This document shows positions 7,951-15,419 of a stretch of DNA of 19,433 bases, in pieces; positions within the stretch are counted from its first letter, which is position 1, and each line of letters opens with the position of its first letter. The position numbers were made by a program. Origin of the DNA: Octopus sinensis (Eukaryota); contig NW_021824252.1 of NCBI RefSeq assembly GCF_006345805.1, positions 1-19,433 on the forward strand, written 5' to 3'.

Positions 7951-9308
7951 TACATACATATATATATAACTTATAAATAAGGGAAAAAAAAAAATTTTAA
8001 TGCCAAATATGCCGAAAATTGGAGATATTGTCCATTACCATATAATTTATCACAATACGCACGCTACTCGAAAAAAAAAGCCGACAGAAATTTCTAAAAA
8101 ATTCCATTATTACCATATCGGACCGATTTCAGGGTTAGTTCGTAAGAACCCTCCTTCGTCAGTGATAAATGTGGCAAAGAAATAAAGTATTTCATTTATT
8201 TCTTTACCACATTTATCACTGACGAAGGGAGGGTTCTTACGAACTAACCCTGAAATCGGTCCGATATGGTAATAATGGAATTTTTTAGAAATTTCTGTCG
8301 GCTTTTTTTTTCGAGTAGCGTGCGTATTGTGATAAATTATATGGTAATGGACAATATGTCCAATTTTCGGCATATTTGGCACTAGAAATTTTTTCGTTTG
8401 CTCTTATTTATAAGTTGTTTATAATTTTAACCGTTAAAGGTATTTTTTAATATGCTGGCCATTGATAAAATTTTTTTTTTTCGAAATATTTATATATAAA
8501 TATTTTAAAATATATATATATTTTAATATATATAATATATATACGACAGGCTTCTTTCAGTTTCTGTCTACCACATCCATTCACAAGGCTTTGGTCGGCC
8601 CGAGGCTATAATAAAAGACACTTAACCAATGTGCCATGCAATGGGACTGAGCCCAAAACCATGTGGTTGGGAAGCAAGCTTCTTACCACACAGCCACACC
8701 TTGCAGTGGATGAGCACCCCACAGACACGCGAAGCCTTAACGTAGTTCTCAGGGAGATTCAGCGTGACACAGAATGTGACCAGGCCGGCCCTTTGAAATG
8801 CAGGCACAGCTCACTTTTGCCAGTTAACTGAACTGGAGCAACGTGTATATAATTACATTAATTTTTTTTATATACATCGAATGGCTGTGGGGGCCCAGGT
8901 GAGAAAAATAGGTTTCAAATGAGTTGATAGGCAAAAAATGATTGGGAACATCTGATACAGGGTCAGTGATAAGAGCAAATATAGTCCTTGGGCCTGTTGT
9001 TATTTAGTGCCGGGTCCAAACTGGTCCAACAAATTGCGAGCATTCATTGTATAAATGTAATCTTTCCTTCCCCCCACCTTCTCTGTTTCCCTCTCTTTTT
9101 TGAAGAGTGCGTTTACGTGTGCATATATATTCTTTATCTTTTACTCATTTTACTTCGAGCTCCTTGCAGTTTCCGTCTACCAGATCAACTCACAAAGTTA
9201 TCGCCGGTCCGAGGCTATAGCAGTAGACACTTGCCCAAGTTGCCACGCCGTTGGTTTGTACTGGAGCCATGCGCTCGGGAAACAAATTCCTTACCACACA
9301 CTCAAGCC

Positions 9309-9342
<34 letters not shown>

Positions 9343-10108
9343 CATAATATAATATAAATAATATATATATGCATATATACATATGTATATGTACATACAT
9401 CTATTTGTATATATATATGCATATGTGGACACAGGACGTCACGAAGCGTGTACAACCAAAAGTACGAAGCACGAGTACATGGAACATGAACTATTCTTTC
9501 GAACAACGAAAGACACAAATGGAAAACAAAACAAACAACATAAAGAACGACCCTTCATATGTTGTTGGCTGTTTTTTTTAGTCTCGTATTTCGAGCATTT
9601 AACAAAAATATACGCTTTCGATAAAACAGTTTCTCCAGCAAAGCAAATTAAATAAAATTTGGGATTTTGTGGAGAGTCAAAATTGGTAACACAAACAGGA
9701 CAGTGAAAACAAACAGGAAAAGTTGCTAAGCCTAAACGAGGTTCTGGTGGTGAACGTGTAAATCAAGTTTAGACAGGACACAAACAAGAACACGTCTTCC
9801 TTGTTCCAGCTATAACAAAGAGAAAGATGGTCGATGGTCACGTAGGAGCCACGTGAGCAAGAGAAGAGGAGTGAGGGGGAGAGAGTGTGGGAGAAGAGGA
9901 GGTAAAAGAATAAGAGAGAGAAAGAGAGAAAAACGAAAGAGTAAAAAGATCGTATAGAGTGTGCATCAGAATTAAGATAAAACTTACTTGGAAGCGGATG
10001 CGTGGCGTTCAGTCATATAATAATCATACAATAATATAAATAATATTTGTATTTATATATATATATGCATATGCAATACGTATATGTACATACTTACATC
10101 TATTCGAA

Positions 10109-10202
<94 letters not shown>

Positions 10203-10490
10203 GGTCCCGGGTTGATTCGGGTTTAACCACAGTAAATAAGGTACTCAATACATAGCAGAGTAAAATTAATTTATTATATAGAAGGAGCTTCTACAGGACT
10301 AGAACTGTTTCATTCAAGAGAAATCTTCAGGAAGCCCTGAAGATTTCTCTTGAATGAAACAGTTCTAGTCCTGTAGAAGCTCCTTCTATATAATAAATAT
10401 ATATATATATATATATATAATATATATATATATATAAATATATCTATTTCTTTTATTCTTTTATATATATATATATATATATTTCTTTAT

Positions 10491-12031: not shown

Positions 12032-12093
<62 letters not shown>

Positions 12094-13015
12094 TTCTATG
12101 TGTGTGTGTGTGTGTGTGTGTGACCTATTAGCTGCTGTCATTTGACACGTTCATCTGAAACAAACATCTTTGAAGACGCTGTCTTTAATAGATAAAATTA
12201 ATGGCAAACAATGAGAACGTAAATCTTATGTTCAAAACATTATCTACAACAACAACAACAATAACAACGACAACAACAAAACACACACACACACTTAAAA
12301 GTAATATCAGTAACCGTACACAAACAACACAACCAACCACCACCACACCCACCAACGACAACAAAGATTAAAGATAAACAATATAACATATTTTTTTCTC
12401 TCACTCTTAATACAAACTCACGCACGCGCCACACACATAATATGCATATATATATACATATACATATATAGATATATTATTTATATAATATATATATTAT
12501 ATATATATATATATACTTATATATACACACATCTAAAATAGATGTGTGAATAAGTGTGTATATCTGTATACATGTATATGCATATATATGAATACTATCA
12601 ATATATATATGTACAATATATATATGTATGTATATATATCTATATATTTATACATTTGTATTATGTAGGTATATGTATGTATATGTGTGTGTGTGTGTGT
12701 GTATGGGTGTTGGTGATTATGCTAATTTTCATATCATATCTTTATCTCAAAAATTGAAGTGGTCTTGGGTGTGTGTATATATATATATAATATATATATA
12801 TATATCATTTACATATACTTGTGTGTGTGTGTGTGATGTATATATATATCATTTACATATGTGTGTGTGTGTATACAATTATTGCCGTATAAGATAGATA
12901 ATCAGTTGCATGGGCAGACATGTTAATATCACTGCGAATGGATGAGATAAGAGATTGGAATGACAATACATATATGTAAATAGATAAGGTGGAGGGAAGA
13001 TGACAGAAGGAAAGG

Positions 13016-13087
<72 letters not shown>

Positions 13088-15419
13088 TAAAGTCAGACAA
13101 GTTAGACATGAAGAAATATAGAAGAAAGAAAGAAAGAAAGGAAGAAAGGAAGAAAGAAAGAAAGAAAGAGAAAATGGAACAAAGAAGAAAGAGAGAAAAA
13201 GGAAGGAAGGAAGGAAGAAGGAAGAAAAGAAGAGAAAATTAAACAAAGAGGAAGGAGAGAAAAAGGAAGGGAGGAAGGAAGGAAAGAAAGAAAGAAAGAA
13301 AGAAAGAGAAAATGGAACAAAGAGGAAGGAGAGAAAAAGGAAGGAAGTAAGAAAGGAAGGAAAAAAAGAAAGAAAGAAAGAAAGAAAGAGAAAATGGAAC
13401 AAAGTGGAAGGAGAGAAAAGGAAGGAAAGAAAGAAGGAAGGAAGGAAGGAAGGAAGGAAAGCCAGTTCCTGTTATTTGTATTATTTCAACGTTTCGAAGA
13501 TGATAATGATGATGATGATGGTGTTGATGGTAAAGTAGAAAGAACGGGAGGAAGAAGGCTTAAAGGTGGATCGAAGAGGAGAAATAGGGAAAAGAAATAG
13601 ATGAGAAAAGGGGGGAGGAAGGGAGGAGGAGGAGGAGGAGGAGAAGAAGAAGAAGAAGAAGAAGAAGAAGAAGAAGAAGAAGAAGAAGAGAAGAAAAAGA
13701 AGAAGAGAAGAGATGATAAAAAAGCGCGATATGTTGGCGCATTTCATTACATATATCTGCATACGCGCCTGTGCGCGTGTGTTTTTGTATGTATGCATAT
13801 ATGTATGTATGAATGTATGTATGCATATATGTATGTATGTATGAATGTTTGTATGTATGCATGCATGAGAACAGCCCGCTGCAATGTGGTAAAGTACAGC
13901 TATCTAATTGCCTATTATCCCATTTAGTTGTTCTACAAAGTTACAAACCTATATTAAGATGTCTACTCGAAATGTCTTTTTCTGTCCTAAACTCACCGTT
14001 GTATATGACAACAAATTATTTCCTTATTTCATTTGCCAAAATGTCTTTTTGGTTAACTCCGTCAACAATAATATAATGATTGGTTTAATAATAATATAAT
14101 GATAGCGTCTCCAAAACTGACTTATTTCGATTCAGTGCTACACACATTTCTGATTAAATATATTTGACTTCGCTTTAATTGTTGCTGAAAAATGAAAGCA
14201 TAAAAACTGATTACTTGTCACATTTATGAAGAAACGCAGATTAAGAAATTCGCTTTGAAACCACATGGTTTCAACTTCAGTTTCACTGCGCGGAACCTAA
14301 TGCAAGTTTACTATAGCCTCAGGCCTAGTAATGCCTCATGAGTTTGGTAGAGGAAAACTGAAAGAAGTCTGTTGTATAAATAAATATGTACACACACACA
14401 CGACGGGCTTCTTTCAGTTTCTGTCTACCAAATCAACTCACAAGGTTTTGGTCGGCCCGAGGTTATAGTAGAAGACAAGGTACCACGCAGTGGGACTGAA
14501 CCCGGAACCATGTGGCTGGGAAGCAATATTCTTACCTCACAGCCACGCGATATATATATATATACATATATATATTCATATATATATATACATATATATA
14601 TATATTCATATATATATACGTAAATATAAGAGAGTTACCGTTAAGTGGTTAACTCTAGTGCTACAAATAGCTCCTTATTCTAGTATAGCCACCGAAGTTG
14701 TTTCCACAAAAGAAATAACATTACCTTCAACGTAAGGAAAGCGAAATACAACGAAAAGATAGATTAATGCTGAACAATTGTTTCTTTATTAATATAATAT
14801 GCAATTATACTCACATATTTATCTATAAGTCATCTGTAGCATTTGTCCTCGATACAATTTATCAGACCCTCACGGGCGATAAATACCCATGCGGTCTGAT
14901 CGATTGCATACATAGTTGTGATTTAGCCTCTCCGCCAAAAGCATGCTAAGACTTAGTGGAAGCTAATACTGCATATAATATTTACTGCAGCATATTAAAT
15001 TTATAAATTCATAAATGAGGTTGAAAAATTTAATAATACCATCAGTTTAACACTAAGTGGCCTAGCACATAAAAACCAGGGAGACAGTACAAATTTATAC
15101 GTAAATATAAGAGAGTTACCGTTAAGTGGTTAACTCTAGTGCTAGAAATAGCTCCTTATTCTGGTATAGCCACCGAAGTTGTTTCCACAAAAGAAATAAC
15201 ATTACCTTCAACGTAAGGAAAGCGATACAACGAAAAGATAGATTAATGCCGAACAATTGTTTCTTTATTAATATAATATGCAATTATACTCACATATTTA
15301 TCTATAAGTCATCTGTAGCATTTGTCCTCGATACAATTTATCAGACCCTCACGGGCGATAAATACCCATGCGGTCTGATATGTATGTATGTATGTATGTA
15401 TATATATATATCTATATAT

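What the first reader, a model, noticed from the sequence alone, without database searches (positions are those of the whole stretch)
7968..15379. Three sequence-unrelated hammerhead-ribozyme elements, all sitting in (TA)n tracts within 7.5 kb
Seen: the elements at 7968-8500, 10200-10398 and 14615-15379 share no obvious primary sequence. Each is non-coding, bounded by TA microsatellite on both sides, carries two copies of a type I hammerhead fold or core, and has no recognisable TSD. Known: Penelope-like elements carry hammerheads in their pseudo-LTRs and form inverted or partial-tandem structures, and metazoan non-LTR retrozymes are tandem hammerhead repeats that yield circRNAs. Inference: these are several non-autonomous, self-cleaving retroelement families that target or generate (TA)n, possibly contributing to the very high microsatellite load of this genome.
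Basis: partly seen in the sequence, partly recalled or inferred. Interest (0 to 1): 0.88.

Follow-up and report, generated by a model that had tools for sequence, protein, structure and literature searches.

The report
Hammerhead-bearing hairpin insertion in TA microsatellite
Only one of the three claimed elements carries a convincing hammerhead ribozyme motif, and it looks like an ordinary broken Penelope-type retroelement fragment inserted into a TA repeat of an octopod genome.

Summary
The repeat structures and TA-rich flanks are real. The hammerhead claim holds for 1 of 3 elements.

- **E1 (7968-8490):** a hairpin palindrome. Each arm carries a complete type I hammerhead motif, with cleavage sites at 8266 (+) and 8116 (-). 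None of 1000 dinucleotide shuffles of the window gave a motif this good. Two copies fold as a double hammerhead. No Rfam hammerhead model matches it, and it has A-U instead of G10.1-C11.1.
- **E2 (10201-10390):** only a CUGAAGA-N12-GAAA string, expected 0.29 times per window by chance. Helix I is missing.
- **E3 (14615-15379):** 1.6 copies of a ~481-bp unit. It has no hammerhead core on either strand and no Rfam ribozyme match.

Comparison with three other SINE copies shows that E1 was inserted into a pre-existing TA repeat inside a SINE. So E1 landed in (TA)n rather than creating it.

Inverted 5'-truncated copies, partial tandems, hammerheads near the 3' end, (TA)n targets and unreadable target-site duplications are all published traits of Penelope-like elements. 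The window is octopod. Copy number and covariation could not be tested, because no eukaryotic genome collection was available.

A better-supported hammerhead lies outside the finding at 488-555 (Rfam HH9-like, 18.2 bits).

The parts
7968..8490 (.). E1: non-coding hairpin insertion. The left arm 7968-8191 is the reverse complement of the right arm 8192-8417, and the right arm continues with 8418-8490, which has no partner.
   Evidence: arms 94.3% over 459 nt. One search shows it is an insertion relative to three other SINE copies.
8206..8280 (+). Type I hammerhead motif in the E1 right arm. Core CUGACGA 8219-8225, helix II 8226-8251, GAAA 8252-8255, helix III 8255-8265, A17 at 8266 (predicted cleavage 8266/8267). 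Helix I has 6 bp, then a 3x3 internal loop, then 3 bp.
   Evidence: 0 of 1000 shuffles reach this stringency; homodimer minimum-energy fold is the double hammerhead. Against: no Rfam hammerhead hit.
8101..8175 (-). Mirror hammerhead motif in the E1 left arm. Core 8162-8156, A17 at 8116. One G fewer in helix II, so the basal stem has 3 bp instead of 4.
7658..7968 (-). 3' part (7658-7860) and internal (CA)n(TA)n microsatellite (7860-7968) of the SINE copy that hosts E1.
8486..8701 (-). Degenerate TA-rich array (8486-8542) and tRNA-like head (8543-8701) of the same SINE copy, on the other side of E1.
10201..10390 (.). E2: hairpin palindrome (arms 10269-10333 and 10334-10398, the outer ends merging into TA repeat) with a unique left extension 10201-10268. 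It has CUGAAGA-N12-GAAA at 10337 (+) and 10330 (-), but no helix I.
   Evidence: core-only string expected 0.29 per window; no ribozyme family.
14615..15379 (.). E3: terminal direct repeats X1 14615-14900 and X2 15096-15379 flanking Y 14901-15095, i.e. 1.6 copies of a ~481-bp unit. No hammerhead core. A stem-loop lies at the X end (14860-14900), followed after X2 by (ATGT)n then (TA)n.
10604..10977 (.). E4 (not in the finding): symmetric palindrome with arms 10604-10756 and 10826-10977 (95.3%) and (TA)35 at its centre. A TA array lies on the left and unique DNA on the right. No hammerhead core.
488..555 (+). Type I hammerhead outside the finding. U3/A8 covariant core UUGACAA 506-512, helix II 513-525 (G10.1-C11.1), GAAA 526-529, palindromic helix III 529-536, C17 at 537, helix I 6 bp. 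A TA/CA array begins about 180 nt downstream.
   Evidence: 0 of 2000 shuffles; Rfam Hammerhead_HH9, 18.2 bits, E 0.014 in an 81-nt search; gathering score 52.

Best explanation
The region is a SINE- and microsatellite-rich stretch of an octopod cephalopod genome. Its (TA)n tracts have received several short, unrelated, non-coding insertions.

E1 is most likely a dead, inverted pair of 5'-truncated copies of the 3' region of a hammerhead-bearing retroelement of the Penelope-like (PLE) kind, or of a non-autonomous derivative mobilised by one.

Inferred mechanism:
1. A GIY-YIG endonuclease nicks (TA)n.
2. Reverse transcription is primed at the nick from the RNA 3' end.
3. Synthesis stops about 15 nt upstream of the ribozyme and switches onto the nascent cDNA.
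4. The result is a hairpin whose two arms share one 5' truncation point and whose 3' ends face outward.

In an intact multimeric transcript the hammerhead would cleave as a dimer. In E1 itself a transcript would fold into one long hairpin, so the ribozyme is probably inert.

E3 is a partial tandem (X-Y-X, pseudo-LTR-like) with no detectable ribozyme. E2 is a smaller hairpin insertion whose 'core' is at chance level. Their link to PLEs rests on architecture and TA context only.

Shown here: the structures, the motif in E1, the insertion of E1 into a pre-existing SINE-internal TA array, and the absence of hammerheads in E2 and E3. Inferred: RNA-mediated origin, the PLE partner, the template switch, and catalytic activity.
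For: 1. The full type I motif occurs only in E1, once per arm. At helix stringency 6/3/4 it appeared in 0 of 1000 dinucleotide shuffles of the window, and in 0 of 2000 at 6/4/4.
2. Features I did not search for match the canonical metazoan architecture described in PMC4209133: a 6-bp helix I closed by an internal loop and an outer stem, a 4-bp basal helix II, and a self-complementary helix III. The homodimer minimum-energy fold is the double hammerhead (-45.3 kcal/mol, against -38.8 for two monomers).
3. PMC4209133 reports dual hammerheads 100-700 bp apart on opposite strands as truncated PLEs. PMC8557442 reports inverted 5'-truncated copies, partial tandems, (TA)n as the preferred target of Naiad PLEs (a targeting role of the EN linker had been proposed for Neptune), and target-site duplications that cannot be discerned in microsatellites.
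4. E1 is foreign DNA inside the internal microsatellite of one SINE copy. The other 3 aligned SINE copies have head, microsatellite and 3' part with no insert.
5. The arms of E1 and E2 are unequal in length. A snap-back product predicts this; a transposon with terminal inverted repeats does not.
6. The window holds a second, independent hammerhead with sub-threshold Rfam support.
7. The window is cephalopod. PLEs are reported as recently active in Octopus vulgaris (PMC13282606), and 235 Rfam Hammerhead_1 loci are reported in giant squid (PMC6962438).
8. All four local repeats of at least 94% identity in the window lie at TA arrays.
Against: 1. No Rfam hammerhead model matches E1 at E<=10, even when only 81 nt are searched. 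The same test does detect the 488-555 motif.
2. E1 has A10.1-U11.1, where G-C is described as highly conserved (PMC4209133).
3. The monomer minimum-energy fold is not the hammerhead (-19.4 against -15.7 kcal/mol for the best compatible fold), and the folding z-scores are weak, -1.76 and -0.97.
4. The two E1 motifs are one evolutionary event, because they are arms of one palindrome.
5. My shuffles only bound the chance rate at below about 0.001 per 19 kb. A multi-gigabase genome could therefore still hold on the order of a hundred chance motifs.
6. The window has no PLE reverse transcriptase or GIY-YIG ORF. The only RT fragment (3-320, minus strand) has relatives carrying an AP-endonuclease domain, which marks a LINE.
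7. No other copies of E1, E2 or E3 occur in the window. Genome-wide copy number, homology to a PLE terminus and covariation are untested.
8. E2 and E3 lack the ribozyme that canonical PLEs carry.
Confidence: 0.5

Rival explanations
1. The palindromic elements (E1, E2, E4) are foldback or MITE-type DNA transposons that insert at TA dinucleotides, as Tc1/mariner elements do. That would place them in (TA)n tracts. The hammerhead-like string in E1 would be coincidental.
For: Three of the four elements are near-perfect palindromes in TA context. E4 is symmetric, and its ends are compatible with a TA duplication. Tc1-Mariner (73 families) and MITEs (65) are listed as recently active in Octopus vulgaris (PMC13282606). 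Rfam sees no hammerhead in E1.
Against: E1 and E2 are asymmetric. One arm continues for about 70 nt of unique sequence before the TA array, so their termini are not inverted repeats. The E1 motif is far beyond chance for this window and folds as a double hammerhead. E3 is a direct repeat, not an inverted one.
Confidence: 0.2
2. The structures are local DNA-level rearrangements with no mobile element involved. They would be inverted or tandem duplications made when (TA)n tracts form hairpins, break or stall replication forks.
For: E4's palindrome is centred exactly on a (TA)35 tract. All the structures touch TA arrays. No second copy of any element occurs elsewhere in the window.
Against: E1's sequence is unrelated to the SINE sequence on either side of it. 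It therefore cannot be a fold-back copy of its neighbourhood and must have come from elsewhere. The centres of E1 and E2 are not TA repeats. This model leaves the complete hammerhead motif unexplained.
Confidence: 0.15
3. The palindromes are assembly artefacts, for example chimeric fold-back long reads collapsed at low-complexity TA arrays.
For: The palindromes are near-perfect and lie next to microsatellites. Several arm differences in E4 are single-base length changes in short homopolymer runs.
Against: There are four separate structures with 2-6% arm divergence, including substitutions. E3 is not a palindrome. E1 is cleanly embedded between the two halves of one SINE. I have no read data.
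Confidence: 0.05

Closest known systems
Truncated Penelope-like elements with dual minimal or canonical type I hammerheads on opposite strands (Cervera & de la Pena 2014, PMC4209133; parts 1-2 read)
   Same: E1 has two type I hammerhead motifs about 100 nt apart on opposite strands. Helix III is short and self-complementary and is predicted to work only as a dimer. Helix II is long. The motif lies in a non-coding terminal region, and no ORF is attached.
   Different: E1 has an A-U pair at 10.1/11.1 instead of the highly conserved G-C. No homology to any PLE terminus was shown. Family-level covariation is untested.
Naiad/Neptune-type PLE insertion architecture (Craig et al. 2021, PMC8557442; passages read)
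   Same: Both show (TA)n as the insertion site and target-site duplications that cannot be read in microsatellite. Both show an inverted 5'-truncated copy (E1, E2) and a partial tandem giving a pseudo-LTR (E3). E2's core-only string matches that paper's 'HHR_core' descriptor (CUGANGA, 7-17 nt, GAAA).
   Different: The window has no RT/GIY-YIG ORF. Naiads lack canonical hammerheads, whereas E1 has one. The paper describes cephalopod Naiads as old remnants, whereas these arms are 94-98% identical.
Metazoan non-LTR retrozymes (Cervera & de la Pena 2020, PMC7229834, passages read; Li et al. 2026 preprint 10.64898/2026.07.22.740005, abstract and section 14 read)
   Same: Both are short, AT-rich, non-coding elements with a type I hammerhead (E1). 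The preprint argues that retrozymes derive from PLE pseudo-LTRs. A U-U mismatch at the base of helix II, as in E2's string, is described for axolotl HHR_Amex2.
   Different: Retrozymes are head-to-tail repeats of 150-450 bp, each with a hammerhead. E1 is inverted. E3 is tandem but has no ribozyme. There are no expression or circular-RNA data.
Rfam Hammerhead_HH9 (RF02275) and canonical metazoan type I hammerheads
   Same: The 488-555 motif aligns over the whole model. It shares loop-1 and loop-2 letters and the 6-bp helix I and 4-bp helix II architecture.
   Different: It scores 18.2 bits against a gathering score of 52. Its core carries the U3/A8 covariation. E1's motif does not match the model at all.

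Membership tests
Type I hammerhead ribozyme (E1, both arms) | Conserved core CUGANGA ... GAAA ... U-H in type I order | tested here: met
   core at 8219 (+) and 8162 (-), A17 at 8266 and 8116.
Type I hammerhead ribozyme (E1, both arms) | Helices I, II and III closing on the core | tested here: met
   helix I 6 bp, helix II 4 bp (+) or 3 bp (-), helix III 4 bp including 15.1-16.1; a hammerhead-compatible fold exists, and the homodimer minimum-energy fold is the double hammerhead.
Type I hammerhead ribozyme (E1, both arms) | G10.1-C11.1 pair (highly conserved, per PMC4209133) | tested here: not met
   Sequence: A at 8226 pairs with U at 8251.
Type I hammerhead ribozyme (E1, both arms) | Match to a curated covariance model (Rfam clan CL00010) | tested here: not met
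   No hammerhead hit at gathering score, or at E<=10 in 221-nt and 81-nt searches.
Type I hammerhead ribozyme (E1, both arms) | Conservation and compensatory changes among copies; self-cleavage | not testable with these tools
   No eukaryotic genome collection and no bench. The window holds only the two arms.
Type I hammerhead ribozyme (E2) | Core plus three helices | tested here: not met
   The core string is present, but helix I has 1 contiguous pair (my reading of the sequence). 0 relaxed candidates. The core-only string is expected 0.29 times per window. No Rfam ribozyme among 65 hits.
Type I hammerhead ribozyme (E3) | Core CUGANGA (or the U3/A8 variant) with GAAA | tested here: not met
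   No CTGANGA on either strand. 0 candidates with up to 1 mismatch. None with the U3/A8 core. No ribozyme family among the 5 hits at E<=10.
Penelope-like element (autonomous) | ORF with a PLE-type reverse transcriptase and a GIY-YIG endonuclease | tested here: not met
   97 stop-to-stop ORFs of at least 70 aa were listed. Pfam was run on 17 of these 97, and the only hit was RVT_1 at 3-320 (-), a LINE-type fragment.
PLE-derived or PLE-mobilised non-autonomous insertion | Inverted 5'-truncated copy and/or partial tandem (pseudo-LTR) | tested here: met
   E1 and E2 are inverted pairs sharing one truncation point. E3 is X-Y-X.
PLE-derived or PLE-mobilised non-autonomous insertion | Insertion in a microsatellite, (TA)n preferred, target-site duplication not discernible | tested here: met
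   For E1, empty-site paralogues show insertion into a pre-existing array.
PLE-derived or PLE-mobilised non-autonomous insertion | Sequence homology of the element to the terminus or pseudo-LTR of a PLE family in the same genome | not testable with these tools
   No cephalopod genome or repeat library was available.
Metazoan non-LTR retrozyme | Head-to-tail repeats of about 150-450 bp, each with a type I hammerhead | tested here: not met
   E1 is inverted, not tandem. E3 is 1.6 copies of 481 bp with no hammerhead.
MITE / foldback DNA transposon with TA target | Matching inverted repeats at both termini, flanked by a TA duplication | tested here: inconclusive
   E1 and E2: not met, because of the unpaired extension of about 70 nt at one end. 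E4: the termini are symmetric and compatible with TA, but 2 bp inside a palindrome is uninformative.

The most novel reading that the evidence does not exclude
Octopod genomes hold several unrelated families of short, non-autonomous, PLE-mobilised elements aimed specifically at the internal (TA)n tracts of SINEs. In this reading the ribozyme fold acts as a stop for reverse transcription and triggers snap-back, so insertions arrive as ready-made long hairpins. In both E1 and E2 the palindrome centre lies just upstream of the CUGANGA box, 27 nt in E1 and 3 nt in E2. If transcribed, such hairpins (E1 folds at -346.7 kcal/mol) would be a steady source of long double-stranded RNA in a lineage known for heavy RNA editing.
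Probability: 0.12. Interest if true: 0.55.

Novelty: new member of a known kind. Interest (0 to 1): 0.27.

Why it matters
If E1 is what it appears to be, it adds a cephalopod example to a well-described picture. That picture is type I hammerheads carried by Penelope-type retroelements that insert into TA microsatellites and leave inverted or partial-tandem scars. This is useful for repeat annotation of octopus genomes, where such fragments would otherwise be labelled 'unknown' or mistaken for microRNA hairpins: the palindromes gave dozens of sub-threshold miRNA-model hits.

It does not open a new question. The suggestion that these elements create the genome's TA microsatellite load is not supported. 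For the one testable case, the array was there first.

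Tried and rejected
- **Rfam.** Gathering thresholds gave 0 hits in the window. At E<=10 the whole window gave 191 matches, of which the 150 listed held no ribozyme family and 41 lower-scoring ones were not shown. Sub-searches of E1, E3 and E2 gave only hairpin-type microRNA or sRNA noise. I take that noise as a generic effect of the long palindromes, not as evidence for miRNA genes.
- **E4 and ribozymes.** E4 had no Rfam sub-search of its own. It was covered only by the whole-window run and by my descriptor.
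- **Relaxed hammerhead scans.** Allowing one core mismatch, GAA instead of GAAA, and shorter helices found nothing new in E2, E3 or E4. A scan allowing a bulged base after A9, a very short helix III and the U3/A8 core found only the 488-555 motif. Only the type I strand order was scanned. Types II and III also need CUGANGA, which E3 lacks.
- **Coding check and indirect copy-number check.** ORFs from E1 and E3 had no Pfam family and no homologue in the 5.8-billion-protein set. This says nothing either way about copy number.
- **Own covariance model.** MAFFT misaligned the GAAA box when I aligned the E1 and 488-555 hammerheads (alignment A2), so I built no model.
- **tRNA genes.** ARAGORN found none.
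- **E3 as an LTR-type element.** By eye, the repeat ends are not TG...CA, and I saw no primer-binding site after X1. I ran no dedicated tool.
- **Left unchecked.** These were genome-wide copy number, flank statistics, covariation, and homology to PLE termini. The phage, plasmid and E. coli collections are irrelevant here.
- **Supplements not seen.** The min-HHR alignments of PMC4209133 and the PLE consensus file S1 of PMC8557442 (which includes Octopus families) could bear on whether E1-E3 match known PLE termini.

Full report
**What the window is.** The window has 19,433 bases and no N. A reverse-transcriptase fragment at 3-320 (minus strand) has its best named relatives in Argonauta hians (77% identity) and Acanthosepion pharaonis. 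The closest hits of all, at 81% and 78%, are unnamed records. Many relatives also carry an AP-endonuclease domain, so this is a LINE fragment in an octopod cephalopod genome. Self-BLAST shows about ten copies or fragments of one tRNA-related SINE. TRF lists 46 rows of microsatellite arrays, 11 of them period-2 AT/TA arrays. My stricter count of pure (TA) arrays of at least 20 bp gives 19 arrays covering 5.7% of the window.

**Checking the observation: structures.** The three elements exist and are structured.
- E1 is a hairpin palindrome, 7968-8417, centred near 8191. Its arms are 94.3% identical over 459 nt and 98% over the inner 167 nt. The right arm continues with about 70 nt (8418-8490) that have no partner on the left.
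- E2 is a smaller palindrome, 10269-10398, 96.9% identical, centred at 10333/10334. Here the unpaired extension is on the left (10201-10268).
- E3 is not a palindrome. Two direct repeats (14612-14900 and 15093-15379, 97.9%) flank about 195 bp, giving 1.6 copies of a ~481-bp unit.

The elements share no sequence with one another or with the rest of the window. ORFs within E1 and E3 have no Pfam family and no homologues. By the TRF arrays, 5 of 6 element edges touch a period-2 AT array within 0-1 bp, and the sixth touches a degenerate TA-rich array. With pure-(TA) arrays the distances are 0-24 bp, and a random edge lies within 10 bp of an array with probability 0.073. No target-site duplication can be read in such flanks.

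**Checking the observation: hammerheads.** I scanned both strands of the whole window for the type I arrangement, in this order:
- helix I, 5' strand;
- CUGANGA;
- helix II hairpin;
- GAAA;
- helix III hairpin closed by A15.1-U16.1;
- a non-G at position 17;
- helix I, 3' strand.

CTGANGA occurs 8 times in the window. I estimate about 9.5 from sequence length alone, so the heptamer by itself means nothing. Only two sites pass the full descriptor, and both are in E1: core 8219 with A17 at 8266 on the plus strand, and core 8162 with A17 at 8116 on the minus strand. They are the two arms of one palindrome and so count as one event.

At helix stringency 6/3/4 (helix I / II / III), 0 of 1000 dinucleotide-preserving shuffles of the window gave any hit. 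At 5/3/3 the mean was 0.001 hits per shuffle, and at 4/3/2 it was 0.016. A second run gave 0 of 2000 at 6/4/4.

E2 carries CUGAAGA, 12 nt, then GAAA on each arm. It has a plausible helix III and a 3-bp helix II above a U-U mismatch. The strands that should form helix I give only one contiguous pair (my reading of the sequence). The relaxed scan returns nothing. A core-only string of this kind is expected 0.29 times per shuffled window, and core plus helices II and III without helix I is expected 0.079 times.

E3 has no CTGANGA on either strand. It has no candidate with one core mismatch and none with the U3/A8 core variant.

Rfam gives no ribozyme family of any class at gathering thresholds. 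At E<=10 it gives none for E1, E2 or E3. The many sub-threshold microRNA-model hits are the generic response of hairpin models to long palindromes. The hammerhead claim therefore holds for 1 of 3 elements.

**How good is the E1 hammerhead?**

For it:
- Every invariant core position is present.
- Helix I has exactly 6 bp, followed by a 3x3 internal loop and a 3-bp outer stem.
- Helix II has a 4-bp basal stem (3 bp in the minus-strand copy, which lacks one G), an internal loop and a further 5-bp stem.
- Helix III is short (A-U plus 3 bp, 3-nt loop) and self-complementary.
- This is the architecture that Cervera and de la Pena describe for metazoan type I hammerheads that act as dimers (PMC4209133, parts 1-2 read: helix I 6 bp, helix II 4 bp, short palindromic helix III).
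- As that predicts, the monomer's minimum-energy fold is not the hammerhead (-19.4 against -15.7 kcal/mol for the best compatible fold). The minimum-energy fold of two copies is the double hammerhead with an extended helix III (-45.3 against -38.8 kcal/mol for two monomers).

Against it:
- No Rfam hammerhead model matches, even in an 81-nt search. The identical test does pick up a different motif in this window (see 'A second hammerhead' below).
- Position 10.1/11.1 is A-U rather than the highly conserved G-C.
- Folding z-scores of the monomers are unremarkable, -1.76 and -0.97.
- My shuffles bound the chance rate only at below about 0.001 per 19 kb. Across a genome of a few gigabases that would still allow on the order of a hundred chance motifs.
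- Conservation among copies, the decisive test, could not be run.

I put the chance that this is a genuine hammerhead-lineage motif at about two in three.

**E1 is an insertion into a pre-existing TA array.** Aligning four SINE copies (alignment A1) shows the same layout in three of them: a tRNA-like head ending in GAAAGAAGCC(Y)(K)TC, followed directly by a (TA)n/(TG)n microsatellite and then the SINE 3' part. The fourth copy (minus strand, 7655-8705) has the same head (8543-8701) and 3' part (7658-7860). Its microsatellite, however, is split by about 600 columns of unrelated sequence, which is E1.

Three things follow. E1 came from elsewhere. It arrived after the SINE. It landed in a TA tract that was already there. 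This contradicts the idea that E1 generated its TA flanks. It also weakens the rival that the palindrome is a fold-back copy of neighbouring DNA. No such empty-site comparison was possible for E2, E3 or E4.

**What it most likely is.** Craig et al. (PMC8557442, passages read) describe Penelope-like elements as follows:
- They are highly 5'-truncated.
- They are often arranged as partial tandems that form pseudo-LTRs.
- They often have an inverted 5'-truncated copy alongside.
- Canonical clades carry hammerheads near the 3' end.
- They insert preferentially into microsatellites, (TA)n for Naiads, with a targeting role of the EN linker proposed earlier for Neptune. Target-site duplications therefore cannot be discerned.

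Cervera and de la Pena report dual hammerheads 100-700 bp apart on opposite strands and interpret them as truncated PLEs. E1 matches each of these points.

Its geometry fits target-primed reverse transcription that switched template onto the nascent cDNA. The two arms share one 5' end at the centre. The 3' ends point outward. One arm is shorter at its outer end. The hammerhead is in sense orientation about 225 nt from the outer end.

PLEs are reported as recently active in Octopus vulgaris, with 31 families and 336 insertions (PMC13282606, passages). Rfam Hammerhead_1 loci are reported in the giant squid, 235 of them (PMC6962438, passage).

E3's X-Y-X form is what a pseudo-LTR looks like, but without a ribozyme the link is architectural only. 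Its terminal stem-loop (minus strand -23.9 kcal/mol, z -3.9) followed by (ATGT)n could equally mark a LINE-dependent element. E2 could be a copy truncated within helix I of a hammerhead, but nothing I could run distinguishes that from chance.

No element fits the retrozyme definition of head-to-tail repeats that each carry a hammerhead (PMC7229834, passages; preprint 10.64898/2026.07.22.740005, abstract and section 14).

**Rivals.**
- A TA-targeting foldback or MITE DNA transposon explains the palindromes and the TA context, and it suits E4. The unequal arms of E1 and E2 mean their termini are not inverted repeats.
- Local rearrangement at fragile (TA)n suits E4's TA-centred palindrome, but not E1's foreign sequence.
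- Assembly artefact is unlikely, given four separate structures with 2-6% arm divergence and E1's clean embedding in a SINE. I have no reads to exclude it.

**A second hammerhead, outside the finding.** The variant scan found a type I motif at 488-555 on the plus strand. Its core is UUGACAA (506-512), the U3/A8 covariation reported in Schistosoma PLEs. Helix II closes with G10.1-C11.1. Helix III is palindromic (529-536), position 17 is C at 537, and helix I has 6 bp. None of 2000 shuffles matched it.

In an 81-nt Rfam search it aligns end to end with Hammerhead_HH9 at 18.2 bits and E 0.014. That is well below the gathering score of 52. It shares loop letters with the consensus that my descriptor did not ask for. 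A TA/CA array begins about 180 nt downstream.

This shows that hammerhead-bearing sequence is present in this genome, which raises the prior for E1. It also shows that Rfam can see a hammerhead here when one is canonical enough, which counts mildly against E1.

**Novelty and verdict.** The region holds one probable PLE-type hammerhead insertion (E1) and three other structured insertions in TA arrays, with no demonstrated ribozyme and of uncertain class.

Searches of the paper library for 'hammerhead ribozyme' with 'octopus' (5 papers) and for 'hammerhead' with 'cephalopod' and 'retrotransposon' (3 papers) found no study of cephalopod hammerhead elements. They found only the squid Rfam count and general PLE work. 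These would therefore be new members of a known kind, not a new kind. Interest is modest.

Noticed in passing
window 488-555 (+): A canonical-looking type I hammerhead with a U3/A8 covariant core. It matches Rfam Hammerhead_HH9 below threshold (18.2 bits, E 0.014 in an 81-nt search), and 0 of 2000 shuffles gave a comparable motif. It is a single copy, about 180 nt upstream of a TA/CA array at 715-800, and it lies next to the LINE fragment.
   Followed up: partly
window 10604-10977: E4 is a symmetric 153-bp-arm palindrome (95.3%) with (TA)35 exactly at its centre. A TA array lies on its left and unique DNA on its right. It has no hammerhead core. It could be a foldback or MITE element, or a rearrangement centred on the TA tract.
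   Followed up: partly
window 1160-1610, 3640-4055, 7655-8705, 15665-16105 and fragments at 8526-8701, 9156-9300, 14242-14546, 19043-19350: About ten copies or fragments of one tRNA-related SINE with an internal (TA)n/(TG)n microsatellite between head and 3' part. Three reverse-oriented heads are also followed by a TA array on their 5' side (9300-9418, 14550-14618, 19359-19433). Much of the window's TA load is therefore tied to this SINE.
   Followed up: partly
window 3-320 (-): A 5'-truncated LINE reverse-transcriptase fragment (Pfam RVT_1, E 8e-7). Its relatives carry an AP endonuclease and zf-RVT domains. The closest named hits are from Argonauta hians and Acanthosepion pharaonis.
   Followed up: yes
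window 8191 and 10333: In both hairpin insertions the palindrome centre lies just upstream of the CUGANGA box, 27 nt in E1 and 3 nt in E2. This would fit reverse transcriptase stalling at a folded ribozyme. With n = 2, and E2's motif at chance level, it is only a hint.
   Followed up: no
window 14860-14900 and 15339-15379, then 15380-15399: Each E3 repeat ends in a stable stem-loop (minus strand -23.9 kcal/mol, z -3.9). The second repeat is followed by (ATGT)5 before the (TA)n array. This layout is reminiscent of LINE-dependent 3' recognition signals.
   Followed up: no
window 12990-13720 and 16176-16856: A long purine-rich compound microsatellite ((AG)n, (AAGA)n, an 82-bp repeat, (AGA)n) and a ~680-bp degenerate (AC)n array. 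These give long spurious ORFs.
   Followed up: no
window 18307-19237: A direct repeat of about 500 bp at 80% identity (18307-18815 against 18747-19237). It spans two large TA arrays and SINE-like sequence, and is possibly a tandem duplication.
   Followed up: no
window 849-919 (+): A sub-threshold Rfam tRNA match (24.8 bits against a gathering score of 29). ARAGORN finds no tRNA gene. It is probably another tRNA-derived repeat fragment.
   Followed up: partly
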